Part shown: in pieces, positions 1,299-50,349 of the stretch
Layout of the letters: every line of letters begins with the position of its first letter
Position numbering within the stretch: the stretch's first letter is position 1
Origin: Eukaryota sp. GEM-RC1
Lineage: Eukaryota
Assembly: GCA_040285855.1 (NCBI GenBank)
Contig: JAUFOQ010000005.1
Location: 248,001 to 312,000, forward strand
DNA: 64,000 bases
Reading direction: 5' to 3'
The notes under the pieces: generated by a model
Seen by the model: only the letters and a program-made list of their open reading frames with translations
What the model was told of the DNA's origin: nothing
Database searches by the model: none
Position numbers and translations under genes: made by a program

Positions 1299-2244
1299 GA
1301 AGTGCTATTGATGAGGTAAAAATGAATGTTAATCAGTTTGATTCGTGTCTGCCAGAATAATTGTAGATACATTACTTCTTCAAAACTAGAATACACGAGT
1401 GTAAAACATGAATGATTTTTGAGTTATTAGGGCTGCAGACAAACATCTTTTAGCAAATTTTTATTTTAATTACAACATCACTACCATGACAGTGTACATA
1501 CATCTAATAATCAATATCCTCAAAGTCCAGATTGTCTATCTGAAAATTCTCACCTACCTTATCCTCATAATGTCGGCCAAGAGATAATAAAGCGCTAGAT
1601 ACAGAAAGTATTATACATTTAAAGATAACAAACACAATTCGATTTTTTCGTGAAACCGAATTCAATAATGTCAATTGAGTTTTAAAAGTTTTTCACCAAT
1701 CAACAGAGGGTTTTTAGCATAAGATTTAGCAAGTTTCTTGTTGGAATCATTACAAACATTGATAAAAGTCATTGTGGTTTGTAGTTCGTTAATTTATGAC
1801 ATAAACTTTTTTTATAAAAACAAAAGGAATTACTGTTACTTCATCATTAATCTGAAGAATGATTTGACGGAAACACTTTCAGTCTTTTTTTCTTCTGAGA
1901 AATGTCCAGACAGAGCAGTTGCGACCAGGAGTCTGTCTTTCTTCGTCATCATTCCACATACTTCTTGCTCGTTAACACAACAATAATAAGCAATTAATAA
2001 TAGTAACATGATTCATCTCTTTTGTAATTCTGTTCCTCAACTACTGCATTTATGAGAGACTAGGTAAAATACTGTTATAAAACAAGTAATTACAATAAAG
2101 TAATGGTTAAAACTCGTTGAGATTTGAGTTGAAGCAAAGCACATTTGTAGACATTATCTATAATTAATCATAGACTTCCAACTACTATTGTGCTTGACAT
2201 GTGGATACAATCACGTCATTTCAAGTTCTAATTAGGAATCTATT

Positions 2245-4570
2245 CTAAGTAAACTTCAAATTACCTTTTGAAACTGAATTAATGTAAGCTATGGTTGTGT
2301 CATCAAAAGAATTTAAACCCAGATCAATATTTTCAATTATAGAATTCTCCAGAAAAACGTGAGCAAATGCAATTGCAGCTTTACTTGTAATATAATTAGA
2401 CCTTAGAACAAACTGCTTAATCGATGAATTGGCTTTCAACGCATCAGCTAAAGCTATAGTAGCTGGAACAGTAGGATTAACAACAGAAAGATCGTCAAAT
2501 TGAACAAACTTTAAAAAACTGCTATTTGAAATTAAACTGCACAGTATGGGAATAGTTGAACCATGGAATTCACAGTTTTTTAGAGTCAGTTTTGAATCTT
2601 AAAACTCTCCAGAAAGCGAGTTAGAGATGAAGTGTCTTTAGGTGAAATTTGTTTACAATTCTCAGGAGCAAAAACAAACACTCCATTGATGACGTCAACA
2701 AAATGAGGGAAGATATCAATGTCAAGAACTACTTTCCTCATTGTAAGAATTTCATAGACAATCATAAGTCCTGGAATTGTAGGGAATCCAAAACCAAGAC
2801 ACTTCAAATACTTGAGAGGAACGCCTGAGTTGAGAGCCTCTAAAAGAGCAGTAAGATCAGATTGTTGGATTCTTGATTCAAAACTAATAAACCCACGAGA
2901 AACATCAAAAACATGAGGATCGAAACGGATATCTGGAAGTAGTTTCTGACAAGTAACCAGTTCAAATGCAGCTAGTAACACTTTGAGGGGAACGCAATTA
3001 AAACTTAGATCAACAGACTTTAAAGTAGAATTAGATTGAAGAGCACCAATTATGTCCATAAGACTACCACCATAAAGCTCACAACCGGAAAAACCCATGA
3101 AGGTCAAGTGATTATTGGTCTTAATGAAATCAATCAAAATAGGGATCATCGGACTACCAAATTCACACGTTGATAGAGAGAGTCTCTTAATATTAGAAGA
3201 TTCTACAAGGTTTTGTAGAGAAGAGAAATCATCCGGAGTAATTTGAACACGATAGCCAGGGTTAAAAGAGAGTATACCTTCAGTGACATTTAGATAGTGA
3301 GGGGTAATATTGATAGGGGAAGTGAACTCATTAGTAAACATAGCCTTATAAAGAGTAATTAAACAGTTCAAGTTTAATGAAGGTAAACTGACTTTTTTTA
3401 AAATTGAATTAGTTTGAATTGCGTTTAGGATATTTTTTAAATGAAATAGATTTAAATAAGTAACTGTCAAGGGTCAAAACAAGAAGTCCAGAATTCTTTT
3501 CCAACATTTCTACTAACAAACTTGCCTGGTTTTCATCTAGCCGCCATCTTGTTCGTGACAAACATAGTTCTACCAAAGAGGAATTAATTGTTAAAGAATT
3601 AAAAAGTGACGAGAAATCAGTTGAGATTCCAGACAAGGACAGTTTCCTTAGATTGGTGTTACACGTCAAAACTTCTGAAAGACCATCAATATCAATCTTG
3701 GTGTCGAAAAAGGAAACTTCTTGAAGAGAGGTATTACTAACAAGTGCTGAGAAGACTTTAGAATTGGTCTGGGACACACGTGGAAAAAGAATTGATTTGA
3801 GAGAGAGACTTCGTAAAAGAGGAATAACGACATCGGAATCATTAGTGAAGAAGTGGGAGAGATCAACACTTTTGATTGTAGAATTCTTACGTAAAACAGT
3901 GAAAAGTGACATAAACTCAGCATCACTTACTGCAAACCCCCCTGTTCGAGATAGCTAGCTTTGTTATAGTTGTATTTGAAGAGAAGATGGTGGTGAGAGC
4001 AGTGATTGCGGATGGCGTGAACATATCAATGACGAGATCTAGCTCTTTTACTGTTGAATTAAGAGATAGATGATCGGCAAAAGAAGTAAAAGGAGAACCT
4101 GGATAGACTGTAATATCAAGACGTTTGAGAAGGGGAAAGGAGTGAGAACGTGGATGGTTGAGGAAAGTGAAGTCATTGACATAGTAGTCCAGGTTGAATT
4201 GTAGGCATGAAACAATTGAACTAGACTCAAAGATTGTGTTAGATTTGAAAGTATGTTCCAGTAACAAGTTCACTGATCTAATGTTCGCACCAAAGAACGA
4301 GGAAAGAGAGAGAAGACGATCGAGTTCTTGGGAATCCAAGTGATGAGTGTTTGATTCGAGAAAAACTTGAACTGTAATGGTAGCGGATTCAAGAAAGTGT
4401 TGACTCACATAGCCTATCTTATGAAAGAATAGAGAGAGGTTCTTGGAGAAATCAGAACAAAACTTTGGATAACTGTAGCGACCTGGTTTTATCGAAGCAT
4501 TGTGTAGATGTGTAAGGAAGCGGGAGCCGATTAAGACCAGTAACGATGATGGGAGATGTAAATAGTGCAT
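2245..4570 (-). CDS. RNI-like/NLRC3-like leucine-rich repeat protein (~770 aa), split by three 1-bp indels
   Basis: ORFs 3923-4570, 3409-3912, 2586-3470 and 2245-2439 join into one protein. Repeats include NxxLxxLxL, ALQSNSTLKSVDLSFN and LADALKANSSIKQFVL. The indels are at C6 (~3937), T6 (~3433) and T4 (~2590), where copy B is in frame. Confidence 0.8.
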
Positions 4571-4723
4571 TCTGATGACTGATAAATGTTATCATTAGAG
4601 GTCTACTTTATGATACTGTACATACAAATCTACCCCACAGTCTCACACACTCTTAACACTGATCTGAAAATCAACAAGGTTGTAGTGTTGAAGTACATGC
4701 AGTAAGATGCTATTAGCAGCATT

Positions 4724-5405
4724 CTAGGATCGGTAATGCTTACAAGAAGACTTGTGTGCGTGATTTCCAACAGCAAATATTCCAGATCTTCCCTGATAAT
4801 CAGCAAAACAGAGCCAGCAGAATTCCTTACTACATTTGGAAACATCGCATATGATCACAACCGTCATTCTTTTCGATGCCATATCCACATCCTGGACACG
4901 GCTTTGTGTTTTGTTCAATGTAGTTTCTATTGGCGTTCTCTTCTGATGCATAAATCGATTGCAAGTATTCCTGACATGTTTTTCCTTCATGCCAAACCAC
5001 TCTGTCAACGTAGCAAGTCTTGGTTCTGCATTTAGGACAGGAAATGATTGGGTAGTTCTCCCCATCATCGTACACTGCTCCAAAACCACACCCAGGTTTA
5101 GCACACCACCGGAACTCTGGTATAGATTCAATAAACTTTTTGAAGAGGAGTTCTTCGTATGATTCAAAGTCAAGGGCGGTGGCAAAAGTACGGATGTTTT
5201 CGTGTTCCATTTTAGAGTTACAGTCTGAATTCAAGCAAGGAACTTCTCTGAAGGCGTTTTTGACGTTGATTTCCTCACGAACGTGTCTCAAGATACAAAC
5301 ATTGCAGAAGTCTCTTTCATGATCACAAGAAGAGCACATCTTTACAGACCAATCTTCGTCCTCGTCTTTCTCGGTGAGACAAATACGACAGGAGAGGGCA
5401 GTCAT
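4724..5405 (-). CDS. RBR (RING1-IBR-RING2) E3 ubiquitin ligase, minimal ~226 aa; 1-bp frameshift near 4838
   Basis: RING1 CRIC..CSSCDH..CNVC..CLNSDC; IBR WCAKPGC..CPKC..WH..C; RING2 CPGC..IEKNDGCDHMRC..C..FCWLC with the catalytic Cys. Copy B is uninterrupted. Confidence 0.9.
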
Positions 5406-6306
5406 GGGATGCAAATTTAAATTTTGAATTCTAGTTGAATGAACAGCAGAGGCATGCACAGTGCTTCGTCATGCATCTCCTTTTCCCTTTGATAATATAT
5501 GTCATTCTTGGCATCAAACAAACTGGCAGTCCAACAATAGCAGACTAAGAGGAATTTAGTCTACTCAACATGTATTGATCTTATTTAATACCCCATCCAC
5601 TGCACTAATTGGTATCTTTTTGAACTCGGATCATCCCAAATATGACGAGTTAAACAAACATAGTCTTTGTCATCAAAACAACAATACAAAAAGAGAAGAA
5701 ACATGAAGTAAAAGTACCATGACACGCACTTTGTTAGCTTTTCGGTCATCAAACACCAATACTTGCATGAGAAACAGATAACACTAAATTATAGAAATCA
5801 TGAAGCAACTTTAACTACTGTGAAAGCTGGTCTAAAGTTTGGTGTCTTTCTTGTGTGAATTTAAACTGCAATTAACATTCTTATTAAGAAACAGATACGA
5901 GACAAACACAAGATTATGTGTCACAAACATCAGTACCTCTGTATCAACTCAACAATAAGGAACCCAAAGTTCTATATCGGCAATTCAAGTATCGAAAGAA
6001 GGATTAAGGAAAATGTCTGGGATCAAGGCATCGGTTCCAGCACCCTATTCCATGATGGTTGGAAACACAAACATGGGAAAATCGTCAACAGTCGAGATGA
6101 AACAAACAAATAGAAAAACTACAAGACAAAAGAAAAACAGGAGCACATAACATTATAGAAGCATAAGGAAAAAGAGACTGCCCAAAGAACACAACAGATC
6201 TAAGTACATAAAGATGTTGTACTTAGAGACAAGAGAAACAGATTCTGGCACGACAAAATTCTCTCCTCTGGAATTTTGATGACTTCCTTTCAATGTCAGA
6301 TCCGTC

Positions 6307-6927
6307 ATGCTTGTTGTCTGTTTAGAAGGTCCTCACGGGGTTGGTAAAAGCTCTCTCCTCAAACAGTTTTCTGCATTGGGTTTTCCTACCCTTGATGAAG
6401 CTTTTCTCGATCTGCCTGATTCCATATTACATCCCCAAACTCTCACAATGGAACTTGAATGGCTATCGAAGTGGTTCCAACGCCTTCTGAAAAAGAAATC
6501 AGATCCCAAAGGTCATTATCCCGTCTACATTGCAGACCGAAGCCCCTTTTCAGCTGAGCTGTATGCTCACAACGGAAAGCTTCTGTCACCCGTTCTTCGC
6601 TCCATGGTTGAAGAAATGGAACAAGAAGCTGGTATCAAGATTGTCACCATTCATCTCAAAGTCTCTCCCTCTGTTCTATGGAGTCGTATCCAGACCCGCC
6701 TAGTCACGGAGCCCTCTCGTACCCTGTATAATGAACATCGGTACTCTTGGATGATGACTGTGCTTGAATTCTACAACACGTCATCATGGACATATGTAGT
6801 CTCAAACAATGCCGATTTACAGAACTGTTTGGAGGACGTTGTAAGTACTTTGAACAAGAATGAACAGGGCTTTAGTGAATTGCCAATTGAAGCTCGTCGA
6901 AACTGTGTTTCATCTATTTCTTCATAA
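6307..6927 (+). CDS. Deoxynucleoside kinase / thymidylate kinase-like P-loop kinase
   Basis: N-terminal Walker A (LEGPHGVGKS), DRS motif (IADRSPFS) and lid R..TR. The 206-aa protein is identical to 44925-45545. Confidence 0.85.
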   Translation: MLVVCLEGPHGVGKSSLLKQFSALGFPTLDEAFLDLPDSILHPQTLTMELEWLSKWFQRLLKKKSDPKGHYPVYIADRSPFSAELYAHNGKLLSPVLRSMVEEMEQEAGIKIVTIHLKVSPSVLWSRIQTRLVTEPSRTLYNEHRYSWMMTVLEFYNTSSWTYVVSNNADLQNCLEDVVSTLNKNEQGFSELPIEARRNCVSSISS

Positions 6928-7176
6928 TTCAACACTCTTTGTTAGTGTTTTTTGGAGGTTATTTAATAAACAAAGTATATTTAATAAGTTCTAGGAAGTC
7001 GTTACCCCCATGTTGCGTATTCAAACTGTTCTACACCTCTAAAATTTTTGTTCAGTACAGTGCATCCATTCTTTCATCAGTCAACATGTTTATCCGAATT
7101 GTCAATAGTCAATTATATACACCAAAGTAGACGACCAATAGTGCAGTCTGAAAGTACTTGTAAAATGTCGCGCTAT

Positions 7177-8097
7177 CAATTTTCAGAAATGCGTCAAATG
7201 CGCGCATTTGGCGCATTTTGACGCCTTTTACGCATTTGGGATTTTGTGATCTTGCGCATTTTGACTTTGAGATTTTTTTTGAATTTTTTTTTGCTGTGCT
7301 TCTGTATAAGTCTCTAAAAACAATAACAGTGATGTTGATCTCAAGGCAGTGTTTTGCAGTCCCTCCTTCGTTGGACAAATGCAAAGTTGTACTGTATACA
7401 ATTCAATGAACATTCTTTTGATATCACAATGTGAATTGGTTTAAAATCGGTGAAGTTAGTGTGATTCAACCAAAACTTATGATCAAAAGTCTGTTTTACG
7501 AATATTTACGAACAATGTAAATCGATACAAAACCATAAACGGTTAATATTGTATAAAAAACTGAATGAAATATGGTTTAAAGACCATTTATTAAGACACC
7601 AACGTCCACTGTTTGTCCTGAAAGTTGAAACACGTTTTCTGTATAGATGTGATCAACAGTAACAGTTGTTGAATGAGATTGGCCAATGAGAAGAGGATGT
7701 GCGTTTTCGAGCTCTCAACTCAGCTTAAAGACTTTCAACGAGTTCTGAACACAGTTTTGAACAAGAAAACATTACATCGTCCCCAGTACAAAGTGTTGTT
7801 TCAAACGATTAGTTCCAGCGACGAACTGGTGGACACAATGATGATAATGAACTGTAGAACCTTTGGAAGGAGGTTGGTATACAATTGGAGCGTGATGCCA
7901 AATTATGTGGGATTTTGATACATCTCGAAACGGGTATGGCATATAGAGAATTACGGGTACATGTATCAGTATGACGAAAAAGATTTTTATTTATGGGGTG
8001 TCTCAAGTTCTAAATCAAAATGCGCACGTAAAATGCGCGCATTTGGCGCATTTTGACGCATTTCATTTCTGGAAAGAGTGCGCATTTGACAACACTG
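7177..8097 (-). mobile_element. Non-autonomous hAT element (GCGCATTT-subterminal family), one TIR lost
   Basis: Inverted relative of 46207-47787. Right end TTGACAACACTG is followed by CAATTTTC (8098-8105), which also occurs at 7177-7184. Empty site in copy B at ~45790. Confidence 0.85.
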
Positions 8098-10507: not shown

Positions 10508-10515
10508 CTAAATTC

Positions 10516-12060
10516 TAGGACTGTCCAAATTAGGGTCGGTTCATGCAGGTTCGGTTCAAGCTCCATGAACCTGAACCGAACCGAACCGAACTGGTTCTTA
10601 AAACTACGAACCTGAACCTGAACCAGTTTAAACCATACTTGTAAAATACAGATTTCTGTATTTTATGTATTTTTGTATTATATGTATTTTTCAAATAGTG
10701 AGTTTTAAAATACAAAGTGTATTTTAGTGTATTTTTCAAACACACAATCCAAGTGCTTTTTAGCACAGATTTGATGTAAAATGAGTCGATTAGTTAGAGA
10801 TAGTCGTACTTTTTTGGTTTGGGAGATCGTTTGTTTATGAACTGATTGCACTTCTCAGAGTCAAATCCAGAGTAGATGATGAACAAATGAAACAAAAAAG
10901 TTCATATAATTTCAACCAGACCCTCATTCATGACTTCTCTTTCCCAATCCACCCTATACCTATTTTATGAATTTCCTGATGTTGAACAAGAGAATCAGGA
11001 AGTTGTACAAGTTGAAGACGATGGAATTGGTGAGTTAGTGGAGATCCATGACGATGCACTAATGTGGGATACGGGTCACCAACTGCAGGAAAACGCAAAC
11101 GTAGACAGCAATCTACTACTGTACCGTTAACGTTGAGTCGTGGAGATGAAGATTGATTGACGTGGATGTTTGTATTTTACTTTGTATTTTAGTGTATTTT
11201 ATGTATTTTTGTATTTTATGTATTTTTGTATTTTTCAAATGAAAACTCGTGTATTTTACAAGTATGGTTTAAACCGGTTCAGAACTAGTTCAAAACGGAA
11301 TTTCACCTTTATTTTAGTAGTTATACATAATTAAGTCAACAAATCTAAACTCAAACACGCTCATCAACAAACAATTTCTGCAAAGACTTCAAACTAACCA
11401 ATGAAGTAACACTTTTATCAGACAAAGAAGCATGAAATTCAGTGGCTGTCCGGCCTGCAGAAGAAAACATTTGTTCAGATGGAACAGATGTTGCTTGAAG
11501 TGCAAGGTAATTTCTAGCAATCGTAGCCAGTTGATAGTAACGGTGACATCCTTCATATTGCCACCAGACAAGAGCTTCGGAGTTTTGAGCCAATGCAGGC
11601 TCAGCACAGTATAACCCAATTCTTCAGCAGCACTTAAACTAGATCTTGAACGTTTAACATTAGGCTCGAATAAATTATGTTCTGCTAGAGCAGTTGAACA
11701 ACTTTCCATGTTATCAAGCATGGACTCAAACATATCGATGTAAAAAACAACTTCATCTGTTCCAGGAAGCCTGGTTTTGCGAATTCGGGGATCCAAAGAA
11801 GACAACCAAACACCGCAGTTTCGTCAATTCAACAAATTATTTTAAACATAAAGACCTCATATTGATGTTTATTGCTTAAATGCAGTGCTAGAAGCAGATT
11901 ATATTTTGATGAATTAACTGGTTCCGAACTGGTTTGGAACTGGTCTGGTTCAGTTCCAACAAATCACGAACCTGAACCGACTAAATTAGTGAACCCGAAC
12001 TGAACTGAACCAGTTTGGAACTGGTTCGGAACTGAACTGAACCGAATTTGGACAGTCCTA
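10516..12060 (-). mobile_element. Deleted hAT element (GAACC-subterminal family) with transposase C-terminal remnant
   Basis: Perfect 16-bp TIR TAGGACTGTCCAAATT; 8-bp TSD CTAAATTC at 10508-10515 and 12061-12068. Minus-strand remnant LDPR..ALVWW..LATIARNYLALQATSVPSEQMFSSAG at 11351-11805. Confidence 0.93.
10634..11266. mobile_element. Nested non-autonomous hAT-like element (TGTATTT-subterminal family), 633 bp
   Basis: Perfect 17-bp TIR CATACTTGTAAAATACA; 8-bp TSD GTTTAAAC at 10626-10633 and 11267-11274. Confidence 0.9.
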
Positions 12061-12092
12061 CTAAATTCCTTCATCTCGGATCTGGTTGTTAT

Positions 12093-14571
12093 ATGGGGAC
12101 TGAATGTTCTCCCACCCAAGTCTTTGCCTTCCCTCCTTCTACAATCACTGCAAAGCTTTGTAATCTTCGTAAAGAAGGTGTTCTCCTTGACTCATCCATT
12201 TCCCTTCACGACGACGAGTTTCCTTGTCATTCTGCCGTGGTTTCTCTCTTCAGTGACCTTCTCAAAACCAAACTGTTTTCTTCCTCCAAAGTTGATGATC
12301 TCGATCTCCTGTTACTTCTACTTCCCGATTCCTCTCTCTTCTTCAACGTCTTGTACTCTTTCTATGGTCTCCCTCTGAAGTTCACTTTTCAAGATCTCTA
12401 TCATACTGGTGTTGTCTCTACTTACTTGAAATACACTAATCTTTCTGATTTTCTTGCTACTCTTGTCGAAACTGGAATGAGCTTGAAGAACACGTTCACT
12501 TTCCAATTAGATCATGACGTGATTGTTTCTAATTTTAGAAAGTTTGCCCCTAGTGACGTGTCAATTACTTACAAGGAAGTACACATTCAAACAAATACCC
12601 TAATTTTAGTTGCCACGTCAGCAACTTTTCTGAACCAATTCTCTACTAGTTTTATTGATTCAAATGATCGCAAAATCACTTATGAATCAGAATTTGAAGG
12701 AGTAGAAGAAGATACTTTTGAACAATTTTTTAATTTGTTCTATTCAGATTCAATTAAGGTCAATATTTCTAATGTTTTAAGTTTTTATCAATTGTCCTTT
12801 TATTTTCAAGTTCCAGAGCTTTTGGAAGCTTGTAAGACGTTTTTATTAACCAATACTTTTACTGATTTGGAATTATTGTCACTTTTGAATTTAGCAAATG
12901 TTCGTCATCAAGTTCGATTTGTTGAACAAATTTTACATATATTTAAAAATCTTTCTCATCCCCTGAAACTCGATTCATTACCATTGTCTGTTGAAATACT
13001 TCAAAGGTTGTTTCCTATTGTTGATAATTGGTGGCTTATTCAATGTCTTTTAGAAACTTTTAAAAATCGAGAATTAACCAGTGAAGAATTAAATTCTATT
13101 TTAAAGTTGATTGACATTCATCAATTTGATTACAACAATCTGTACACTTTAATTCAACCTTTATTTGATGAACAATCTTTTGAGTCTGTTTTATTACAAT
13201 GGTCAGTTGATAATTTTTCAAATATTAAACAATTGGAGAAAATTCCTCCGCATTGGTTTTTATGGACTTTTCAAGCTGCTGATAGAGCTAAATCTGATCT
13301 TGAACATTTTGTTGTTAATTTTATGAAAGTTGTTCCTTTTGAGTTTCTACATTGTTTTCAAGGATTTTCTCCATCACCTTTAGCTTTCAAACTTCTTGCT
13401 CCATCAGTTACAGCTGATTATTCAACTTTTTGGCTAAAAGTCTTGTTGATTCTTGGAGAAATTTTGATTGGGATGTTGACGTATTTCATGAATGTGTGAA
13501 TGGTTTTGATTTGAAAGTGACAGATCCTGTTGCTATTTTTGAAATATTTTCAGACTTAAAAAATGATTCAAAACTGTGCCAATTCTTCCAAAAGTATTTC
13601 GCTGATAATGCTTTAATTGTTTTGAAATTTCAACAGGCTAAGTGTGAAGGTCTTGTTAAAAATTTGGAAAAGAATGTTGCCACTTTAAAACAAAGTAATT
13701 CTCAATTATCACTAACTAACTCTCAATATAAGGAGTTTGTCATGTCTTCACTTCGTTTCCCATTTACCTTTACTAATGCAGGAAAAACAGGTAGAAGTGG
13801 GCCTTGTCTTGAGGACTGTATTGGTGCTTATAATCATGAATATTTTAAAAATATTCAAAATTTTAATGTTATTGATGGGATTCAACATTGGACTGTACCT
13901 TTAACTGGAATGTATAGAATTGAATGTGCTGGAGCTAGAGGTGGTAATGATAATTATAACACTTCAACTAAACCTGGAAAAGGAGCAGTAATGATTGGTG
14001 AATTTGAATTGAAATCTGGTCAAATTATTAAAATATTGGTTGGTCAGGTTGGGTGTGATGCTCGAGGTGCTAATTGGCATCGAGGTGGAGGAGGAGGTGG
14101 TGGTTCCTTTGTTGTATTGGATTCTTCTCCTTTAATAGTTGCAGGAGGTGGTAATGGGCAGAGTTATAGAAGTTGGAAAACAAACGGACCTGATGGTAGA
14201 GTAGATTTCACTGAAGGTGTTGGTAAAGGAGGAAGAGGACGTGGCAGTGATGGTGGTGGATTCACTCTTGATGGTCAGAATGCAACTGAAGGTAATAATA
14301 CTGGAGGTAAGTCCTTTCTTAATGGAGGAATGGGTGGTCAAAGTGACACTAGTTATTCTATTACAGCTCACGGTGGATTTGGTGGTGGTGGAGGTACCAG
14401 AGTAGAAGGAGGAGGAGGCGGGGGTATACCGGGGGTAGTGTAGTCCCTACTAATCAGTACAACAATACATACCCCTCGTATGGAGCTGGATCTTTCAATT
14501 CAGGATTAAATCCAGTAAATACTAGTGGAAGTAATGATGGAGATGGTTTTGTAAAAATACATTTACTGTAG
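12093..14571 (+). CDS. Tandem BTB/POZ + coiled-coil + ALK/LTK-like glycine-rich domain protein, paralog 1 (two homopolymer frameshifts)
   Basis: BTB1 LCNLRKEGVLLD..EFPCHSAVVSLFS; BTB2 SDVSI..LILVATS..FEQFFNLFYS..NVLSFYQLSFYFQVPELLEAC; C-terminal FTFTNAGKTG.SGP..GIQHWTVPLTGMYRIECAGARGG..ILVGQ.G..GGGGGSFV..PLIVAGGG. Frameshifts in a T-run (~13428) and a G-run (~14420). Confidence 0.85.
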
Positions 14572-28100: not shown

Positions 28101-30516
28101 AAATACTTGGTATATCTTTTAAATCGATCCTGAAAAGAATTACACCATCAACAAAATTAATTGAGTGACGATAAATAGTAATTACATGTAATGATCTAGA
28201 TTTTTGAGCAGAAATAAGTTCAACAACAGTCAAGAGATTTTCAAACGAAATAGGAAGGTAACCAAATGTGACCTTTTTTAAACCGACATTTTCTTGCAGT
28301 GCTTTCATAATTTCCCAAAAACCATTAGTACATACACAGTCTTCAAAGTCAATGGAAACCAACAAGTTATTGGTTTTGATTATATCACATAAAGCAGTGA
28401 TTGCATCATCATAAAAACAACCTCTTTTTAGAGTAAGCTCTTTGATACTAAAAGACTTCAAAAACGCTGTAAAGACGAGACTTCTTTAGCAGTTCTTTCA
28501 GTCAAACATTCATGTGAAAAGCAAAACACACCATTTTCAAGGTCCAGATAATGAGGAGAAAGACTAATATTCAACACTGATCTGTTGATAGTTAGAATTC
28601 GAGAAACAATAAAAAGTCCTGCTATTCTTAGACTTTGGAATCCATGATGACAGATCACATACTTGATAGGAACATTTGATTTTAAAGCATTTGAAACAAG
28701 CACCAAACTATCGTTTTCAAACTCATTTTCATAACGAATACCACCATGGGCAAAATCAAAGAGATGAGGAGAAACTTGAATATTTGGTGTTAATTTTTTA
28801 GCCGCAACCAGCTCAAAAATAGCCATAAGAGTTTTGAATCTCATTGAGCTATGATTGAGATTGACTTTACTTAAATGAGTGTTCAATTGAAAAGCATTGA
28901 TTAATTTCAAGAAGTCGTCTGAAGAAAGTGAAGTATTCCAGATGTAAACGTCATTGGAACCATCCCTTGTTTGTGTTTCAGCTTTTCCAATGTAACTGAA
29001 GTCAACGGAAGTAAATGAAATATTGTCCCTAATTAAATCAGACAAAGCACAAATTGATTCAGTAGTAAAACTACATTTTTTAAGAGTGAGGTCCTTAATA
29101 CTAAAACACTGCAAAAAACATTGTAAAGATGAGAATTCTTCAGTAGACACTTGAGTCGTTGTTTCCGGCGAAAAATTAAACACACCATTTTCAACGTCAA
29201 TAATATGAGGAGATACATCAACACTAATCATTGAGTTGTTAATAAAAAGAATTTCAAATAAAGCAATAAGTCCTTCCAGATTTGGACTTTTGAACCCAGG
29301 ACATTCAACACTTGTAATAGGAACGTTGGACTTAAGAGCATTAAGAAGTGAAAGTAAATCATCATTGTCAACTAAATTTTGAAAAGTAATTGAACCAAGA
29401 ACAAAATCAATAGATTGTTTAGAAATTTGAATACTAGCAATTGAATTGTGAGATACAAAAAGGTCAAAGATATTTAAAAGTCTTTTAAAGTTAATGTCAT
29501 TTACGCTCAGATTGACTGTTTTTAAAGAAGAAACAAATCGAAGTCAATTTAGTAAGTCAACGAAATCCTGATTAGAAAGTCTACTGTGACTGAAGTCAAC
29601 AGAAGTCAATGAACTTTGATTGATTCGGATTATATCACACAACACAGTGTTAACTTCCTGGGTAAAATGACATTTTCTAATAGTAAGATTTTTGATACTA
29701 AAGCACTCCAACAAAGTTCGAATAGATGATATACCCTCAGCATTTAGTCGTGTAGAATGTAGTGGCGAAAAGCAAAACACACCGTTTTGAACGTCAATAA
29801 TATGCGGACAAATTTTAACAAATATCACAGATTTGTTATTTGAAACAATTTTAAATAATGCAATAAATTCTTCTGAACTGGAACTTTTCAAACCAAGACA
29901 GTCAAAACGTTTAATGGGAACTTTTGATTGTAAAGCGTTTAAAAATGAAATTAATTCAGAATGGTGGAGCTTATTATCATAACGGATAGTACCGTGATCA
30001 AAATCAATCAAGTGGGGAGACACTTGAATATTTGGTGTTAATTTGTCAGATGAAATTAGTTCAAAAATCTTCAGAAGGTCATCAAATCCGATTAAATTAT
30101 TGATAACATTAATTTTTGTTAAATTGGAGTTGGACGACAGTGCACTGATTATCGAACAATTGCGGTCAGAAGAATTATGAGAACTTTGGTCAAACAAATT
30201 ACAATCACTGAAGTCAACGGAAGTTATTGAATTATTGTCCCTAATTAAATCAGACAAAGCACAAATTGATTCAGTAGTAAAACTACATCTTTTAAGAGTG
30301 AGGTCCTTAATACTAAAACACTGCAAAAAACATTGTAAAGATGAGAATTCTTCAGTAGAAACTTGAGTCGTTGTTTCCGGCGAAAAATTAAACACACCAT
30401 TTTCAACGTCAATAATATGAGGAGAAACATCAACACTAACCATTGAGTTGTTAATAAAAAGAATTTCAAATAAAGCAATAAGTCCTTGTAGATTTGGACT
30501 TTTCAATCCACGACAT

Positions 30517-31450
30517 TGTTGGTGCTTTCACCAATGGAATGAAGAAAAGCTTGTTTATTGATCTATACAAGAAAGAAGAACAACTGCCACGTCACTATTC
30601 GCTAACACTACCTCTTCTACATATTTTGTTTAGAGGATTCACAAAATCAGGTCTTGAGCGATCATCTACCATCTCTAAATGGTTCACTTCTTCTACTTTG
30701 GCTCTACAATTTACAGCAAGATGGCCAGGACGGTGACATCTGTAACAGTTTCTTTTCTTTATGTCATCGCTACGCAGTTGAGTTCTGCTTAAAACTTCGG
30801 GATTTGCAGCAGCGGACATCCAACATCTAGCACGTTCGAGGTCAACCAATTCTGAGGTAATGCAGCTTATTAAGCTTGCAAGGGAAGGAAATATGTCATC
30901 TTTTACTCTGGAAGTAAGAGAAACTGACAAACCTTTAGGACAAACACCACGAGCGAATCGCATTATGAAAACCTTTTCTGACAGATTCAATGGTGAAGCC
31001 CTTTCCTGGACGCAGACAAATCGACGGAGGTAATCGTTCATCCGTTCTTGGGGTTCTTTGATGGTTTTATCCATCCGGAGTTCGGAGACAGTCCGAGAAA
31101 ACTCCTCGTAAGAACTGAAGGTGACCATTCCACGGAGGAATTCTCTCAAGCTGGAGTCCGAAGACAGTTCAGGACTGTACAACTTGAGAGATTTGAGGAT
31201 TGCTGGCTCCAGCAAAAGTCTCAAAGGTATTTGTCGAGGCTTATCAGTGACTGACTGATAAACCTCGACTGAGTGTAGAAACTCATTTATGTCGGACACA
31301 GACAGTGTGGACAATCGGGGTGTTTGATGAGACGGGATCATCGGGGCAACAATAATTATTGTTGGTGCTTTCACCAATGGAATGAAGAAAAGCTTGTTTA
31401 TTGATCTATACAAGAAAGAAGAACAACTGCCACGTCACTATTCGCTAACA
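30517..31450 (-). mobile_element. Gag-only miniature LTR retrotransposon (934 bp)
   Basis: Identical 91-bp LTRs (30517-30607 and 31360-31450), TGTT...AACA; 4-bp TSD ACAT; PPT AGAAGAGGTAG before the 3' LTR; AATAAA inside the LTR. The paralogous LRR repeat at ~29300 shows the uninterrupted sequence. Confidence 0.95.
30595..31341 (-). CDS. gag: Retrotransposon Gag protein (248 aa) with CCHC zinc knuckle
   Basis: Open from MIPSHQ. Capsid-like LRM..QERMNDYLRRF..LNLSEKVFIMRFARG; knuckle CYRCHRPGHLAVNC. The stop codon lies inside the 3' LTR. Confidence 0.88.
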   Translation of the reverse strand: MIPSHQTPRLSTLSVSDINEFLHSVEVYQSVTDKPRQIPLRLLLEPAILKSLKLYSPELSSDSSLREFLRGMVTFSSYEEFSRTVSELRMDKTIKEPQERMNDYLRRFVCVQERASPLNLSEKVFIMRFARGVCPKGLSVSLTSRVKDDIFPSLASLISCITSELVDLERARCWMSAAANPEVLSRTQLRSDDIKKRNCYRCHRPGHLAVNCRAKVEEVNHLEMVDDRSRPDFVNPLNKICRRGSVSE

Positions 31451-32676
31451 ACATTCAACACTTTTAATAGGAACGTTGGACTTAAAAGCATTAAGAAGTG
31501 AAAGTAAATCATTTGTTTCAACCTCACTATCGTAACTAACTATAGCAAGGGCGAAATCAATCAAGTGAGGAGAAACTTGAATATTTGGTGTTAATTTGTC
31601 AGATGAAACCAGTTCAAAAATCTTCAGAAGATTATCAAATCCAATTAAATTATTGCTAAAATTGATTTTTGTTAAATTGGAGTTGGACGACAGTGCACAG
31701 ATTATGGAGCAATTGCGATCAGAAGAATTATGAGAACTTTGGTCAAACAAATTACAATCACTAAAGTCAACAGAAGTCAACGCGTTACTCCCAGTAATTA
31801 AATCACACAAATCAGGGATTGTGTCGACAGTAAAACGACATCTTTTGAGAGTAAGGCCTTGTATACTAAAACACTTCAATAAATACTGTAAATAAGAAAC
31901 TTCTTCAGCAGACAGTTGGTGGATCATTTGTGGGGTAAAACAAAACAAACGATTTTTGATGTCAAAACTATGAGGGCAAATATCAACATCTACTATAGAC
32001 TCGTTACTGGAAAGAATTTTAAATAAAATAATGAGTCCTTGTAGAGTTGGACTTTTCAACCCACGACAATCAAAACGTTTAATGGGAACGTTTGATTTAA
32101 GAGCATCAAGAAGTGAAAGTTAATCATCATTGTCAACTAAATTTAAATTTTGATATCGAATAGAACCACGAAAAAAATCAAATGAATGAGGAGAAACTTG
32201 AATGTTTGGTGTTAATTTTGCAGTTGAAACCAGTTCAAAAATGGTCAAAATAGTCAGTAATTTTACTGAAGTATGGCTAAGATTAATTTGTTTTAAATCG
32301 GAGTTGGACTGAAATGCATCTATCAATTTCAAGAGATGTTCATCATGAAGATTGGTAGAATAACATCGCGCAAGGTCAGAAACGTAAATTGCAATAGAAC
32401 TGAAGTCAACAGATTTCAACGAGTTATTGACCCTAATTATATCGCACAAAGCAGGTATTGTTTCGGTAGTAAATCGACATCGTTTAAGAGTAAGCTCATT
32501 GATACTAAAAGATTTCAAAAAAAGTTGTAAAGAAGATACTTCATTGGCAGTTATTAATGTAGATTTTTCTGGAGAAAAACAAGGTATACCATTTTCAACG
32601 TCAATAGAATGAGGAAAAACAATAATATTTGAAGTCAATTTGTAAGTTGAAACCAGTTCAAAAATAATGAATAGTA

Positions 32677-37721: not shown

Positions 37722-40214
37722 CTACAGTAGCTGTATTTTTACAAAACCATCTCCATCATTACTTCCACTAGTATTTACTGGATTTAATCCTGAATTGAAA
37801 GATCCAGCTCCATACGAGGGGTATGTATTGTTGAACTGACCACAAGGGACTACACTACCCCCGGTATACCCCCCGCCTCCTCCTCCTTCATATCTGGCAC
37901 CTCCACCACAACCAAATCCTCCGTGAGCTGTAATAGAACGACCAGTATCACTTTGACCACCCATTCCTCCATTAAGAAAGGACTTACCTCCAGTACTATC
38001 ACCATTACCACTAGTTCCATTCTGACCATCAAGAGTGAAACCACCTCCACCACTACCTCGTTCTCCTTTACCAACACCTTCAGTGAAATCTACTCTTCCA
38101 TCAGGTCCGTTTGTTTTCCAATGACTAAGATTCTGCCCATTACCACCTCCTGCAACTATTAAAGGAGAAGAATCCAAAACAACAAAGGAACCACCTCCAC
38201 CTCCTCCGGCAACATACATACCACCTTTAGCATCACACCCAACCTGACCAACCAATATTTTAATAATTTGACCAGATTTCAATTCAAATTCACCAATCAT
38301 TACTGCTCCTTTTCCAGGTTTAGTTGAAGTGTTATAATTATTATTACCACCTCTAGCTCCAGCACATTCAATTCTATACATTCCAGTTAAAGGTACAGTC
38401 CAATGTTGAATCCCATCAATAACATTAAAATTTTCAATATTTTTAAAATATTCATGGTGATAAGCACCAATACAGTCCTCAAGAGAAGGTCCAGTTCTAC
38501 CTGTTTTTCCAGCATTAGTAAAGGTAAATGAGAAAAACAGTTGAGATAATTGAGAGTTTCTTTGCTTTAAAGTGACAACATTCTTTTCTAACTCAGATTT
38601 ATCATTATTTAAATTCTGAACAAGATCATCAAGTGTTTTCTTTTGCTGGGACATAGTCAAGAGCTCATTTTTTTGAAAGTTTAACACTAGTAAGGCATTA
38701 TCAGCAAAATACTTTTGGAAGAATTGAAACAATTTTGAATTATTTTTTAAGTCTGAAAATATTTCAAAAATAGCAACAGGATCTGTCACTTTCAAATCAA
38801 AACCATTGACACAATCATGAAATACGTCAACATCCCAATCAAAATTTCGCCAAGAATCAACAAGACTTTTGGCCAAAAACGTTGAATAATCAGCTGTAAC
38901 TGATGGAGAAAGAAGTTTGAAAGCTAAAGGTGATGGAGAAAATCCTTGAAAACTATGTAGAAACTCAAAAGGAACAACTTTCATAAAATTGACAACAAAA
39001 TAATCAAGATCAGATTTAGCTCTATCAGCAGCTTGAAAAGTCCATAAAAACCAATGAGGAGGAATTTTCCCCAATTGTTTAATATTTGAAAAATTATCAA
39101 CTGACCATTGTAATAAAACAGACTCAAAAGATTTTTCATCAAATAAAGGTTGAATTAAAGTGTACAGATTGTTGTAATCAAATTGATGAATATCAATTAA
39201 AATTAGAATAGAATTTAATTCTTCACTAGTTAATTCTTGATTTTTAAAAGTTTCTAAAAGACATTGAATAAGCCACCAATTATCAACAATAGGAAACAAC
39301 CTATGAAGTATTTCAACTGACAATGGTAATGAATCGAGTTTCAGGGGATGAGAAAGATTTTTAAATATATGTAAAATTTGTTCAACAAATCGAACTTGAT
39401 GACGAACATTTGCTAAATTCAAAAGTGACAATAATTCCAAATCAGTAAAAGTATTGGTTAATAAAAACGTCTTACAAGCTTCCAAAAGCTCTGGAACTTG
39501 AAAATAAAAGGACAATTGATAAAAACTTAAAACATTAGAAATATTGACCTTAATTGAATCTGAATAGAACAAATTAAAAAATTGTTCAAAAGTATCTTCT
39601 TCTACTCCTTCAAATTCTGATTCATAAGTGATTTTGCGATCATTTGAATCAATAAAACTAGTAGAGAATTGGTTCAGAAAAGTTGCTGACGTGGCAACTA
39701 AAATTAGGGAATTTGTTTGAATGTGTACTTCCTTGTAAGTAATTGACACGTCACTAGGGGCAAACTTTCTAAAATTAGCAACAATCACGTCATGATTTAA
39801 TTGAAAAGTAAACGTTTCCTTCAGGTTCAATTCAGAAGCAATAAGAAGAGCAAGAAAATGAGAAAGGTTAGTGGATTTCAAGTAAGTAGAGACAACACCA
39901 GTATGATAGAGATCTTGAAAAGTGAACTTCAGAGGGAGACCGTAGAAGGAGTTTAAGACTTTGAAGAAGAGGGAGGAATCGGGAAGCAAATAAAAAAGGG
40001 AAACGAGATCATCTAGTTTGGAGGAAGAAAACAGTTTGGTTTTGAGAAGTTCACTGAAGAGAGAAACGACGGCAGAATGACAAGGAAACTCGTCATCGTG
40101 AAGGAAAATGGATGAGTCAATGAGAACACCTTCTTTACGAAGATTACAAAGCTTTGCAGTGATAGTAGATGGAGGGAAGGCGAAGGTTTTGGTAGGAGAA
40201 GATTCAGTCCCCAT
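37722..40214 (-). CDS. Tandem BTB/POZ + coiled-coil + ALK/LTK-like glycine-rich domain protein, paralog 3 (intact, ~830 aa)
   Basis: Uninterrupted ORF with the same motifs as 12093-14571. 3' flank homology to ~14570-14740 extends to ~37550. Confidence 0.9.
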   Translation of the reverse strand: MGTESSPTKTFAFPPSTITAKLCNLRKEGVLIDSSIFLHDDEFPCHSAVVSLFSELLKTKLFSSSKLDDLVSLFYLLPDSSLFFKVLNSFYGLPLKFTFQDLYHTGVVSTYLKSTNLSHFLALLIASELNLKETFTFQLNHDVIVANFRKFAPSDVSITYKEVHIQTNSLILVATSATFLNQFSTSFIDSNDRKITYESEFEGVEEDTFEQFFNLFYSDSIKVNISNVLSFYQLSFYFQVPELLEACKTFLLTNTFTDLELLSLLNLANVRHQVRFVEQILHIFKNLSHPLKLDSLPLSVEILHRLFPIVDNWWLIQCLLETFKNQELTSEELNSILILIDIHQFDYNNLYTLIQPLFDEKSFESVLLQWSVDNFSNIKQLGKIPPHWFLWTFQAADRAKSDLDYFVVNFMKVVPFEFLHSFQGFSPSPLAFKLLSPSVTADYSTFLAKSLVDSWRNFDWDVDVFHDCVNGFDLKVTDPVAIFEIFSDLKNNSKLFQFFQKYFADNALLVLNFQKNELLTMSQQKKTLDDLVQNLNNDKSELEKNVVTLKQRNSQLSQLFFSFTFTNAGKTGRTGPSLEDCIGAYHHEYFKNIENFNVIDGIQHWTVPLTGMYRIECAGARGGNNNYNTSTKPGKGAVMIGEFELKSGQIIKILVGQVGCDAKGGMYVAGGGGGGSFVVLDSSPLIVAGGGNGQNLSHWKTNGPDGRVDFTEGVGKGERGSGGGGFTLDGQNGTSGNGDSTGGKSFLNGGMGGQSDTGRSITAHGGFGCGGGARYEGGGGGGYTGGSVVPCGQFNNTYPSYGAGSFNSGLNPVNTSGSNDGDGFVKIQLL

Positions 40215-40432: not shown

Positions 40433-40896
40433 TTTAGTAAAGTTGATTCATTTTACCAGCGGTGCGAACTTTTCTTTTCTTTACTTTTCGGCTGCTTCTA
40501 GGTGGTTTAGACCTTTTGAAGTTACGACTTCAATACGTTTTATTGTACAAATATCATCATTCCATAAACTTCTTGCTCGTTAACAAAACAATAATAAATG
40601 CGTTTATAAAATCAACAATGAATCTACAACAGAATTTCGTTTCAACAAAGCAATCAATAATAGTAACATGATTCATCTCTTCTGTTCCTCAACTACTGCA
40701 TTTATGAGAGACTAGGTAAAATACTGTTATAAAACAAGTAATTACAATAAAGTAATGGTTAAAACTCGTTGAGATTTGAGTTGAAGCAAAGCACATTTGT
40801 AGACATTATCTATAATTAATCATAGACTTCCAACTACTAGTGTGCTTGACATATGGATACAATCACGTCATTTCAAGTTCTAATTAGGAATCTATT

Positions 40897-43211: not shown

Positions 43212-43370
43212 TCTGATGACTGACAAATCCAATAGCAAATGTTATCATTAGAGGTCTACTTTATGATACTGTACATACAAATCTACCCCACAGTCTCCCA
43301 CACTCTTAACACTGATCTGAAAATCAACAAGGTTGTAGTGTTGAAGTACATGCAGTAAGTTAGCAGCATT

Positions 43371-47787: not shown

Positions 47788-47819
47788 CTAAATTCCTTCA
47801 TCTCGGATCTGGTTGTTAT

Positions 47820-50349
47820 ATGAGGACCGAATGTTCTCCTACCCAAGTCTTTGCCTTCCCTCCTTCTACAATCACTGCAAAGCTTTGTAATCTTCGTAAA
47901 GAAGGTGTTCTACTTGACTCATCCATTTCCCTTCACGACGACGAGTTTCCGTGTCATTCTGCCGTGGTTTCTCTCTTCAGCGACCTTCTCAAAACCAAAC
48001 TGTTTTCTTCCTCCAAAGTTGATGATCTCGATCTCCTGTTACTTCTACTTCCCGATTCCTCTCTCTTCTTCAACGTCTTGTACTCTTTCTATGGTCTCCC
48101 TCTGAAGTTCACTTTTCAAGATCTCTATCATACTGGTATTGTCTCTACTTACTTGAAATACACTAATCTTTCTGATTTTCTTGCTACTCTTGTCGAAACT
48201 GGAATGAGCTTGAAGAACACGTTCACTTTCCAATTAGATCATGACGTGATTGTTGCTAATTTTAGAAAGTTTGCCCCTAGTGACGTGTCAATTACTTACA
48301 AGGAAGTACACATTCAAACAAATTCCCTAATTTTAGTTGCCACGTCAGCAACTTTTCTGAACCAATTCTCTACTAGTTTTAATGATTCAAATGATCGAAA
48401 AATCACTTATGAATCAGAATTTGAAGGAGTAGAAGAAGATATTTTTGAACAATTTTTTAATTTGTTCTATTCAGATTCAATTAAAGTCAATATTTCTAAT
48501 GTTTTAAGTATTTATCAATTATCCTTTTATTTTCAAGTTCCAGAGCTTTTGGAAGCTTGTAAGACGTTTTTATTAACAAATACTTTTACTGATTCGGAAT
48601 TATTGTCACTTTTGAATATAGCAAATGTTCGTAATCAAGTAGGATATGTTGAAGAAATTTTACGTATTTTTAAAAATCTTTCTCAACCCCTGAAACTCGA
48701 TTCATTACCATTGTCAGTTGAAATACTTCATAGGTTGTTTCCTATTGTTGATAATTGGTGGCTTATTCAATGTCTTTTAGAAACTTTTAAAAATCAAGAA
48801 TTAACTAGTGAAGAATTAAATTCTATTCTAATTTTAATTGATATTCATCAATTTGATTACAGCAATCTGTACACTGTAATTCAACCTTTATTTGATGAAA
48901 AATCTTTTGAGTCTGTTTTATTACAATGGTCAGTTGATAATTTTTCAAATATTAAACAATTGGACAAAATTCCTCCTCATTGGTTTTTATGGACTTTTCA
49001 AGCTGCTGATAGAGCTAAATCTAATCTTGAATATTTTATTGTCAATTTTATGAAAGTTGTTCCTTTTGAGATTTTACATATTTATCAAGGATTTTCTCCA
49101 TCACCTTTAGCTTTCAAACTTCTTTCTCCTTCAGTAACAGCTGATTATTCCACGTTCTTGGCCAAAAGTCTTGTTGATTCTTGGAGAAATTTTGATTGGG
49201 ATGTTGACGTATTTCATGAATGTGTGAATGGTTTTGATTTGAAGGTGACAGATCCTGTTGCGATTTTTGAAATATTTTCAGAATTAAAAAATGATTCAAA
49301 ACTGTTTCAATTCTTCCAAAGGTATTTTGCTGATAATGCTTTAATTGTTTTGAAATTTCAAAAAAATGAGCTCTTGACTGTATTTCAGGAAAAGAAAACA
49401 CTTGACGATCTTGTTCAAAATTTGGAAAAGAATGTTTCGGGATTTGAAGATCTTGTTCAGAATTTAAATAATGATAAATCTGAGTTAGAAAAGAATGTTG
49501 CCACTTTGGAAACAAAGTAATACTCAATTAGTAACCGGACTCCCCTTTACCTTTACTAATGCAGGAAAAACAGGTAGAACTGGACCTTCTCTTGAGGACT
49601 GTATTGGTGCTTATAACCATGATTGGGTAAGAAATATTCAAAAATTTAATGTTATTGATGGGATTCAACATTGGACTGTACCTTTAACTGGAATGTATAG
49701 AATTGAATGTGCTGGAGCTAGAGGTGGTAATAATAATTATAACACTTCAACTAAACCTGGAAAAGGAGCAGTAATGATTGGTGAGTTTGAATTGAAATCT
49801 GGTCAAATTATTAAAATATTGGTTGGTCAGGTTGGGTGTGATGCTCAAAGTAGCGGTTCTCTTCGAGCTGGTGGTGGTGGAGGTGGTTCCTTTGTTGTTT
49901 TGGATTCTTCTCCTTTAATAGTTGCAGGAGGTGGTAATGGACAGTGTAAGAGTGATTGGAAAACAAATGGACCTGATGGTAGAGTAGATTTCACTGAAGG
50001 TGTTGGTAAAGGAGAAATAGGTAGTGGTGGAGGTGGATTCACTCTTGATGGTCAGAATGCAACTAGTGGTAATAGTACTGGAGGTAAGTCCTTTCTTAAT
50101 GGAGGAATGGGTGGTCAAAGTAATACTAGTTATTCTAAAATAGCTCACGGAGGATTTGGTGGTGGTGGTGGTGCTCACTATGAAGGAGGAGGAGGCGGGG
50201 GGTATACCGGGGGTAGTGTTGTTCCTCATGCTCAGTTCAACAATACATACCCCTCGCATGGAGCTGGATCTTTCAATTCAGGATTAAATCCAGTAAATAC
50301 TAGTGGAAGTAATGATGGAGATGGTTTTGTAAAAATACATTTACTGTAG
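47820..50349 (+). CDS. Tandem BTB/POZ + coiled-coil + ALK/LTK-like glycine-rich domain protein, paralog 2 (one frameshift near 49508)
   Basis: ORFs of 566 aa and 284 aa join if one G in TTGGAAAC is removed. It has an extra coiled-coil repeat (DLVQNL twice). Confidence 0.85.

What the first reader, a model, noticed from the sequence alone, without database searches (positions are those of the whole stretch)
13755..14571. BTB adaptors with an antibody-like domain: invariant glycine-rich scaffold and about seven hypervariable loops
Seen: the three paralogs (13755-14571, 37722-38530, 49545-50349) are nearly identical across the glycine-rich scaffold, even at synonymous sites, but differ strongly in short discrete loops. 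In order paralog 1/3/2 these are: CDA[RGANWHRG/KGGMYVA/QSSGSLRA]GGG; NGQ[SYRS/NLSH/CKSD]WKT; GKG[GRGRGSD/ERGSG/EIGSG]; QN[ATEGNN/GTSGNGDS/ATSGNS]TGG; QS[DTSYSIT/DTGRSIT/NTSYSKI]AHG; GG[TRV/ARY/AHY]EGG; VVP[TNQY/CGQF/HAQF]NN. Loop lengths also vary. Established: BTB domains commonly act as Cullin-3 substrate adaptors, and the ALK/LTK glycine-rich region is a ligand-binding module built on polyglycine helices, extracellular in those receptors. Inference: here it appears intracellular (no signal peptide or TM segment visible) and may be a diversifying recognition surface coupling foreign targets to ubiquitination, i.e. a candidate protist innate-immune receptor family.
Basis: partly seen in the sequence, partly recalled or inferred. 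Interest (0 to 1): 0.85.

Follow-up and report, generated by a model that had tools for sequence, protein, structure and literature searches.

The report
Protist BTB adaptors with shuffled tips
A free-living anaerobic protist carries at least twelve near-identical BTB proteins whose ALK-type glycine-rich end domain differs almost only in seven loops predicted to form one binding tip, which likely makes them a variable set of receptors that would mark diverse, possibly foreign, targets for ubiquitin tagging.

Summary
The three window copies encode tandem BTB, helical region, coiled coil and an ALK/LTK glycine-rich domain (GRD; model pLDDT 94, Z 33 to ALK). Nine further paralogs, named Eukaryota sp. 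GEM-RC1, vary in the same seven loops (26 of 41 loop columns versus 9 of 234 others have three or more states). By topology all seven lie at the distal end of the polyglycine bundle (inferred; no coordinates). New here: five tip residues nearly fixed in 43 outside homologs are scrambled in these paralogs (5 of 12 conserved tip sites versus 0 of 57 elsewhere), and loops are swapped between copies (PHI p=0.0003). Related GRDs end BTB-BACK, RING/B-box and UBA-Kelch-BTB proteins, the substrate-receptor slot. Corrections: the scaffold is not synonymously invariant (pS about 0.08); two of three window copies are frameshifted; the fold is not antibody-like; dN/dS near 10 disappears (about 1, rate eightfold) once local rate is freed. 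Cullin-3 binding, expression and foreign targets are untested. Verdict: a new variant of the diversifying E3-adaptor theme, on a scaffold whose closest functional analogue is phage gp38.

The parts
37722..40214 (-). Copy W2: intact 830-aa gene; BTB1 (about 15-125), BTB2 (152-254), helical region, coiled coil (about 507-560), GRD (561-830)
37722..38534 (-). W2 glycine-rich domain (TNF-like sandwich plus polyglycine-II bundle), the modelled domain
12093..14571 (+). Copy W1: same architecture, broken by 1-nt deletions at about 13427-13431 and 14420-14424, both at homopolymer runs
47820..50349 (+). Copy W3: same architecture, frameshift near 49510 at the end of the coiled coil
14063..14086 (+). 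W1 loop L1
14162..14173 (+). W1 loop L2 (holds GRD position 136, Trp in 88% of outside homologs)
14231..14251 (+). W1 loop L3 (holds position 159, Arg in all 43 outside homologs)
14282..14299 (+). W1 loop L4
14345..14365 (+). W1 loop L5
14396..14404 (+). W1 loop L6 (holds position 215, aromatic in all 43 outside homologs, next to Glu216)
14449..14460 (+). W1 loop L7 (holds positions 232 and 234, Asn 95% and Tyr 91% outside)
10516..12060 (.). hAT-type non-autonomous element with terminal inverted repeats and an 8-bp target duplication, ending 32 bp upstream of the W1 start codon (context, not part of the gene)
   Evidence: hAT assignment from the 8-bp duplication is own knowledge

Best explanation
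These genes are a recently expanded family of cytoplasmic tandem-BTB proteins whose C-terminal ALK-type glycine-rich domain likely serves as a substrate receptor, with seven variable loops predicted to form one binding tip that selection likely keeps diverse. Shown: architecture, fold match, at least 12 copies, loop hypervariability, loss of the tip motif that outside homologs conserve, mosaic sequences. Inferred steps: (1) the tip is the ligand site, ancestrally one fixed pocket (Trp136, Arg159, aromatic215, Glu216, Asn232, Tyr234; a set typical of glycan-binding sites, own knowledge); (2) after duplication, gene conversion keeps the scaffold alike and moves loops between copies while selection favours new tips; (3) the BTB-helical part would recruit Cullin-3 so that bound targets are ubiquitinated; (4) the targets are most likely foreign and changing (surface molecules or proteins of bacteria or viruses that reach the cytosol of a bacterivore).
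For: Out-of-sample loop variability. Top connectors vary (mean entropy 0.5-1.8 bits) while the six bottom turns do not (0-0.43). Deep-conserved non-Gly sites with 3 or more states in the 12 paralogs: 5 of 12 at the tip, 0 of 57 elsewhere, p=7e-5. Six-residue tip motif complete in 46 of 53 outside domains and 0 of 12 paralogs. Loop identity among paralogs (0.46 at scaffold identity 0.93) is no higher than to the TZLM1-RC homolog P0007 (0.46 at 0.67); Naegleria orthologs keep 0.97 loop identity at 0.91 scaffold identity. Loop dN 0.59 against scaffold dS 0.085; M2a beats M1a in the GRD (p=8e-7 and 5e-9; 14 of 15 flagged sites in loops) but not in residues 1-515 (p=0.9). Mosaicism: runs test 0 of 10000, PHI p=0.0003; P0001 shares L1, L2, L5, L6 with W2 but not L3, L4, L7. 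GRD as last domain of BTB-BACK (P0024, P0255, P0282), B-box or RING-B-box (P0257, P0279, P0052, P0290) and Kelch-BTB or UBA-Kelch-BTB proteins (P0299, P0310). The same N-terminal scaffold carries an LRR (P0375) or an unrelated tail (P0377) in other paralogs. Precedents: phage gp38 and nematode MATH-BTB.
Against: With a free local rate the loops fit omega about 1 at 7-8 times the rate as well as or better than omega 10 (LRT 0.01, p=0.92; fixed partition p=0.56), so three DNA copies cannot separate positive selection from old or hypermutable loops. Duplicated flanks also hold mismatch clusters, and some outside pairs also show low loop identity at high scaffold identity (0.47-0.59 at 0.83-0.90). 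No BACK domain by Pfam in 14 of 14 N-terminal sequences; the N-terminal model is poor (pLDDT 55) and its KLHL11 BTB-BACK matches are not significant (E 0.04-0.05). BTB1 matches ZBTB-type BTBs best, which are not known as Cullin-3 adaptors (own knowledge). Two of three window copies and 5 of 12 GRD copies are split. The outside homolog set was chosen by score against a profile that held five motif-bearing sequences, so its tip conservation is partly built in. The one-face placement rests on topology, not on coordinates.
Confidence: 0.5

Rival explanations
1. They are Cullin-3 adaptors with diversified tips, but the targets are the cell's own fast-evolving proteins (for example transposon products or paralogous families), not microbes.
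For: All structural and evolutionary evidence fits equally; the window is rich in transposon remains (hAT transposase, zinc-knuckle ORF), and the named organism's genome is 48% repetitive (PMC11316075 Table 1).
Against: Fast tip turnover with birth and death is the pattern attributed to foreign-protein recognition in nematode MATH-BTB and F-box genes; homologous GRDs sit on bacterial surface proteins and phage fibres, which points to microbial-surface ligands.
Confidence: 0.2
2. The tip lost its ancestral ligand and is drifting; gene conversion homogenises the scaffold while heterologous loops escape, and many copies are decaying pseudogenes.
For: Free-rate model gives omega about 1; Trp136 is absent from all 12 copies; 5 of 12 copies split; transposon ends just upstream of W1 and W3; clusters in flanks.
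Against: Loop divergence is about seven times the synonymous level and far above the 7.5-13% of duplicated flanks; loops are co-converted intact, so they are no barrier; scaffold is under purifying selection (omega 0.16); loop indels are in frame; the same seven loops vary in all copies.
Confidence: 0.14
3. The tips are diversified recognition surfaces, but the tandem BTB and coiled coil act as an oligomerisation or signalling scaffold without Cullin-3 (for example caging a target or self/non-self signalling).
For: Tandem BTB best matches tethered ZBTB dimers (4u2m, 4u2n); no BACK domain detected.
Against: BTB2 matches KBTBD4, KLHL22, KLHL3, is followed by a long helical region with weak KLHL11 BTB-BACK matches, and homologous GRDs recur on RING and UBA-bearing proteins.
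Confidence: 0.11
4. The mosaic pattern and broken frames are assembly or polishing artefacts in a repeated region.
For: The window's frameshifts lie at homopolymer or doubled bases, as do several 1-nt indels in a neighbouring duplication; the named paralogs come from a nanopore assembly polished with short reads (PMC11316075 methods); P0242 breaks at the same place as W1.
Against: Sequencing error does not yield in-frame, loop-restricted, mostly non-synonymous differences at the same seven places in 12 copies; this rival can explain the frameshifts and part of the mosaicism only.
Confidence: 0.05

Closest known systems
ALK/LTK glycine-rich domain (PF12810; PDB 7LRZ, 7NX3, 7LS0)
   Same: Same fold over the whole domain: Z 32-33, rmsd 2.4 A over 247-250 residues, 34-35% identity; Foldseek E 3e-17.
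   Different: Here cytoplasmic, fused behind BTB domains, no kinase or membrane anchor, multicopy and variable. In ALK the ligand binds mainly the TNF-like sandwich (recalled, not checked: the passages seen did not say and the paper asked for was not held), whereas the variation here is at the predicted far tip of the polyglycine bundle.
T-even phage gp38 adhesin
   Same: Polyglycine-II lattice with hypervariable loops that set receptor specificity; glycine-rich motifs proposed as recombination points for swapping loops (10.1101/2023.11.25.568672 section 5; PMC12032242 passages; PMC12892980 abstract).
   Different: Ten helices with a beta-helix base instead of a TNF-like sandwich; extracellular and viral; varies between phages, not among paralogs of one genome; not among the listed fold matches, so treated as an analogue.
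Nematode MATH-BTB and F-box families; BTB-BACK-Kelch adaptors
   Same: BTB plus C-terminal variable substrate domain, birth-and-death expansion, selection signal in the substrate domain and not in the cullin-binding part (PMC4334554 passage citing earlier work; here).
   Different: Different substrate fold, tandem BTB, about a dozen copies rather than hundreds, in a metamonad.
TRIM5/TRIM-PRYSPRY restriction factors
   Same: Coiled coil followed by a domain with variable loops on one face (own knowledge); RING-B-box-coil-GRD proteins exist among the homologs.
   Different: The window's proteins have no RING or B-box; GRD instead of PRYSPRY.

Membership tests
ALK/LTK glycine-rich domain (PF12810) | Profile match above the gathering cut-off | tested here: met
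   31.6-51.4 bits against cut-off 24.5 in all three copies
ALK/LTK glycine-rich domain (PF12810) | TNF-like sandwich plus polyglycine-II bundle | tested here: met
   Model pLDDT 94.4; Z 33 to 7LS0; TM 0.75-0.80
ALK/LTK receptor tyrosine kinases | Signal peptide, transmembrane helix, kinase domain | tested here: not met
   Only BTB and GRD by Pfam; no hydrophobic segment
Cullin-3 substrate adaptor | BTB domain | tested here: met
   Two BTB stretches
Cullin-3 substrate adaptor | 3-box/BACK helices after the BTB | tested here: inconclusive
   All-helical region predicted; no Pfam BACK in 14 of 14; KLHL11 BTB-BACK matches at E 0.04-0.05; loose, gapped profile alignment to heterolobosean BACK
Cullin-3 substrate adaptor | Binds Cullin-3 and promotes ubiquitination | not testable with these tools
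Diversifying immune-type adaptor family (MATH-BTB/F-box pattern) | Lineage-specific expansion with birth and death | tested here: met
   At least 12 GRD copies, 5 of them split; the 5 put in the tree form one clade (support 100); 2 homologs seen in TZLM1-RC
Diversifying immune-type adaptor family (MATH-BTB/F-box pattern) | Positive selection confined to the substrate domain | tested here: inconclusive
   Significant with uniform synonymous rate, not with free local rate
Diversifying immune-type adaptor family (MATH-BTB/F-box pattern) | Recognises foreign molecules; induced by infection | not testable with these tools
   No binding or expression data
Antibody / immunoglobulin variable domain | Immunoglobulin fold | tested here: not met
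   The domain is the ALK TNF-like/polyglycine fold at Z 33
Diversity-generating retroelement target | Variation confined to adenines, with a template repeat and reverse transcriptase | tested here: not met
   16 of 54 variable loop columns involve no A and 16 loop A columns are invariant; no template repeat in the self-comparison
T-even gp38 adhesin | Structural homology to gp38 | tested here: inconclusive
   Not listed among matches; other phage fibre tips are (Pam3 Z 9.5, Bxb1 Z 9.0)

The most novel reading that the evidence does not exclude
The ALK-type polyglycine domain is an unrecognised, ancient ligand-binding (likely glycan-binding) module that several protist lineages have wired to ubiquitin ligases as a cytosolic microbe sensor, and this metamonad has turned it into a germline repertoire whose seven tip loops are recombined between copies, as phage gp38 does, to keep pace with bacteria or viruses.
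Probability: 0.3. Interest if true: 0.88.

Novelty: new variant of a known kind. Interest (0 to 1): 0.68.

Why it matters
It would add a new substrate-receptor fold to ubiquitin ligases, give the first handle on cell-autonomous defence in free-living metamonads, and name a conserved pocket (W-R-aromatic-E-N-Y) for a domain whose non-animal members have no known ligand and are routinely mislabelled 'receptor protein-tyrosine kinase'. Twelve natural variants on a 93% identical scaffold also show which positions of a polyglycine bundle accept change, a direct test of its proposed use as a binding scaffold.

Tried and rejected
No whole genome was held, so the copy number is a lower bound from protein clusters and only three copies had DNA. 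No sequencing run was listed, so expression and frameshifts were not checked; this is no evidence either way. Diversity-generating retroelement: rejected. Signal peptide or membrane anchor: none by hydropathy, while two outside homologs used as positive controls have one. Independent origins of the E3-GRD fusions: the free tree separates the Skoliomonas-type sequences from the heterolobosean/TRIM/Kelch group, but one clade is not rejected (AU p=0.25, quick tree, 42 of 65 rows after dropping near-copies and two long branches), so neither convergence nor transfer from bacteria is claimed. N-terminal fold search gave nothing at E 0.001. ESM Atlas: no usable hit for the full protein; GRD clusters only for the domain. 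gp38 was not among the listed fold matches. No complex prediction was sent. Earlier scan findings: none in three look-ups. Literature: no paper holds both 'Skoliomonas' and 'BTB'; the listings showed no report of BTB-GRD or TRIM-GRD proteins (titles and abstract starts only; subscription papers and supplements not covered; the supplements of PMC11316075 were not opened and may hold expression values).

Full report
Observation. The window holds three copies of one gene: W1 (12093-14571, +), W2 (40214-37722, -) and W3 (47820-50349, +). Variable sites in the glycine-rich domain (GRD) are clustered beyond codon shuffles. Three points need correcting. The scaffold differs at 6.5-9.8% of synonymous sites, the same as the BTB2/helical part. 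Only W2 is a single open frame: W1 has two 1-nt deletions and W3 one frameshift. The coiled coil and residues about 68-135 also vary. W1 and W3 start a duplication of about 15 kb; W2 is an inverted copy beside another duplicated block.

Anatomy. Pfam gives BTB and ALK_LTK_GRD. A profile of 14 N-terminal sequences finds two BTB domains, about 15-125 (best ZBTB-type, tethered dimers 4u2m and 4u2n) and about 154-269 (KBTBD4, KLHL22, KLHL3). A helical region and a long helix follow (mean pLDDT 55, BTB part unreliable); no BACK domain is detected and matches to KLHL11 BTB-BACK are not significant. The GRD model is confident (pLDDT 94.4, 101 sequences) and matches ALK and LTK over its whole length (Foldseek E 3e-17; Z 33, rmsd 2.4 A); next come phage fibre tips at Z 9. 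No signal peptide or membrane helix is evident.

Family. Searches returned nine more GRDs named Eukaryota sp. GEM-RC1 at 84-96% identity (6 of the 120 rows listed; 3 of 120), further N-terminal pieces and two homologs in TZLM1-RC. PMC11316075 (passages and two sections read) describes Skoliomonas sp. GEMRC as a free-living bacterivorous metamonad; matching that name to the NCBI label is my inference. The window is therefore most likely from this organism or a very near relative. Seven of 12 GRD copies are predicted as full-length proteins; P0004 and P0005 lack about 60 residues, not checked at DNA level.

Loops are variable out of sample.

One face (inferred). The model's strands (51-58, 76-85, 90-94, 116-120, 123-128, 250-259, 264-269) pin the chain to the sandwich. 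Between them the glycine-rich segments leave and return in excursions of 2, 2 and 12 segments by my count from the sequence. Successive polyglycine helices run antiparallel in 96% of cases (10.1101/2023.11.25.568672, passages and section 5 part 1 read), so connectors alternate between the far and near ends. L1-L7 and a mildly variable L0 fall on the far end; the six near-end turns are almost invariant. ALK has 14 such helices by that paper against my 16 segments, so the count is approximate, but parity closes from both ends.

The tip is normally conserved. Among 43 non-redundant outside homologs (of 53 scoring above 200 bits), Trp136 (88%), Arg159 (100%), an aromatic at 215 (100%), Glu216 (100%), Asn232 (95%) and Tyr234 (91%) are nearly fixed. 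In the 12 paralogs five of these six show 3-9 states: 5 of 12 conserved non-glycine tip sites against 0 of 57 elsewhere (p=7e-5). The six-residue motif is complete in 46 of 53 outside domains, 0 of 12 paralogs, and 7 of 148 domains from 130 bacterial, archaeal and viral loci, so it marks one subfamily and other GRDs have other tips. The outside set was picked by profile score, which partly builds in this conservation. Loop identity among paralogs equals that to the TZLM1-RC protein despite 93% versus 67% scaffold identity, while Naegleria orthologs keep their loops; some other outside pairs do show fast loops. I read this as a specificity-setting pocket being re-targeted, not as slack loops. 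The residue set suggests glycan binding (own knowledge; untested).

Selection and shuffling. Loop dN is 0.59 against scaffold dS 0.085. My GY94 site models on three copies favour M2a in the GRD (omega 10-13 on 9-10% of sites; p=8e-7 and 5e-9) and not in residues 1-515. But freeing the local rate removes the need for omega above 1 (rate about 8, omega about 1). So the loops are certainly far more diverged than neutral gene-wide divergence predicts, and whether by positive selection, retention of old alleles or local hypermutation is open. Duplicated flanks differ by 7.5-13% with 11 clusters in 8307 bp, against 5 in 808 bp for the W1/W3 GRD. Recombination is strong: long runs where each copy in turn is the odd one out, and PHI p=0.0003 in both halves; single loops are shared between otherwise different copies. 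Short-read polishing of repeats could mimic part of this.

Link to ubiquitin. Of 32 close homologs scanned, GRD is the last domain of BTB-BACK proteins (Naegleria, Willaertia), B-box or RING-B-box proteins (Naegleria, Willaertia, two unnamed) and Kelch-BTB proteins, one with a UBA domain; many of the others carry bacterial Ig, PKD, cadherin or LamG domains. This is the slot held by Kelch in KLHL proteins and PRYSPRY in TRIMs (own knowledge). Whether these fusions arose once is unresolved (AU p=0.25). The family's own N-terminal scaffold also occurs with an LRR or an unrelated tail.

Comparison and verdict. It works most like nematode MATH-BTB adaptors (PMC4334554, one passage) on a scaffold that behaves like phage gp38 (PMC12032242 passages; PMC12892980 abstract). 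It is a member of the ALK/LTK GRD fold family, not a receptor kinase, not an immunoglobulin and not a DGR target; Cullin-3 adaptor status is probable but unproven. I found no report of this architecture in the searches named under Tried and rejected. My odds: tip is a ligand site kept diverse by selection 0.7; Cullin-3 coupling 0.65; foreign targets 0.45; the whole account about 0.5. New variant of a known kind; interest 0.68.

Noticed in passing
window 10508-12068 and about 47770-47795: A 1.5-kb hAT-type element with an 8-bp target duplication sits just upstream of W1; outside it, and directly upstream of W3, lie similar element-like ends, and the 15-kb W1/W3 duplication begins exactly at this 8-bp site. 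Transposon ends may have driven the duplication or replaced the promoters.
   Followed up: partly
window 1988-7191 and 40648-45805: A 5.2-kb duplication next to W2 carries an RBR-type (IBR) ubiquitin ligase gene, an AAA_18 kinase-like gene and a 667-codon ORF with no Pfam match; the copy near 2-7 kb has no BTB-GRD gene beside it within the window.
   Followed up: partly
window 28345-32722: Array of related repeated ORFs (65-80% alike) on the minus strand with a weak zinc-knuckle match and no other Pfam family.
   Followed up: no
window 32929-34994: hAT transposase (BED finger, dimerisation domain) in two overlapping frames.
   Followed up: no
GRD tip loops of W2, W3, P0002, P0004, P0005, P0006, P0121, P0122: Eight of 12 copies have gained cysteines in the tip loops, at different positions; could be mutation bias, metal binding or disulfides.
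   Followed up: no
P0001 and P0371: Internal duplication of about 130 residues in the helical region, lengthening the spacer between BTB and GRD.
   Followed up: no
P0271: Unnamed protein fragment whose N-terminus looks like the tail of a KCTD-type BTB (by eye; no Pfam match) in front of a GRD: a possible further adaptor architecture.
   Followed up: partly
L079, L110 and BFVD hits: GRD relatives occur in giant-virus bins and many phage structural proteins, often auto-named 'receptor protein-tyrosine kinase'.
   Followed up: no
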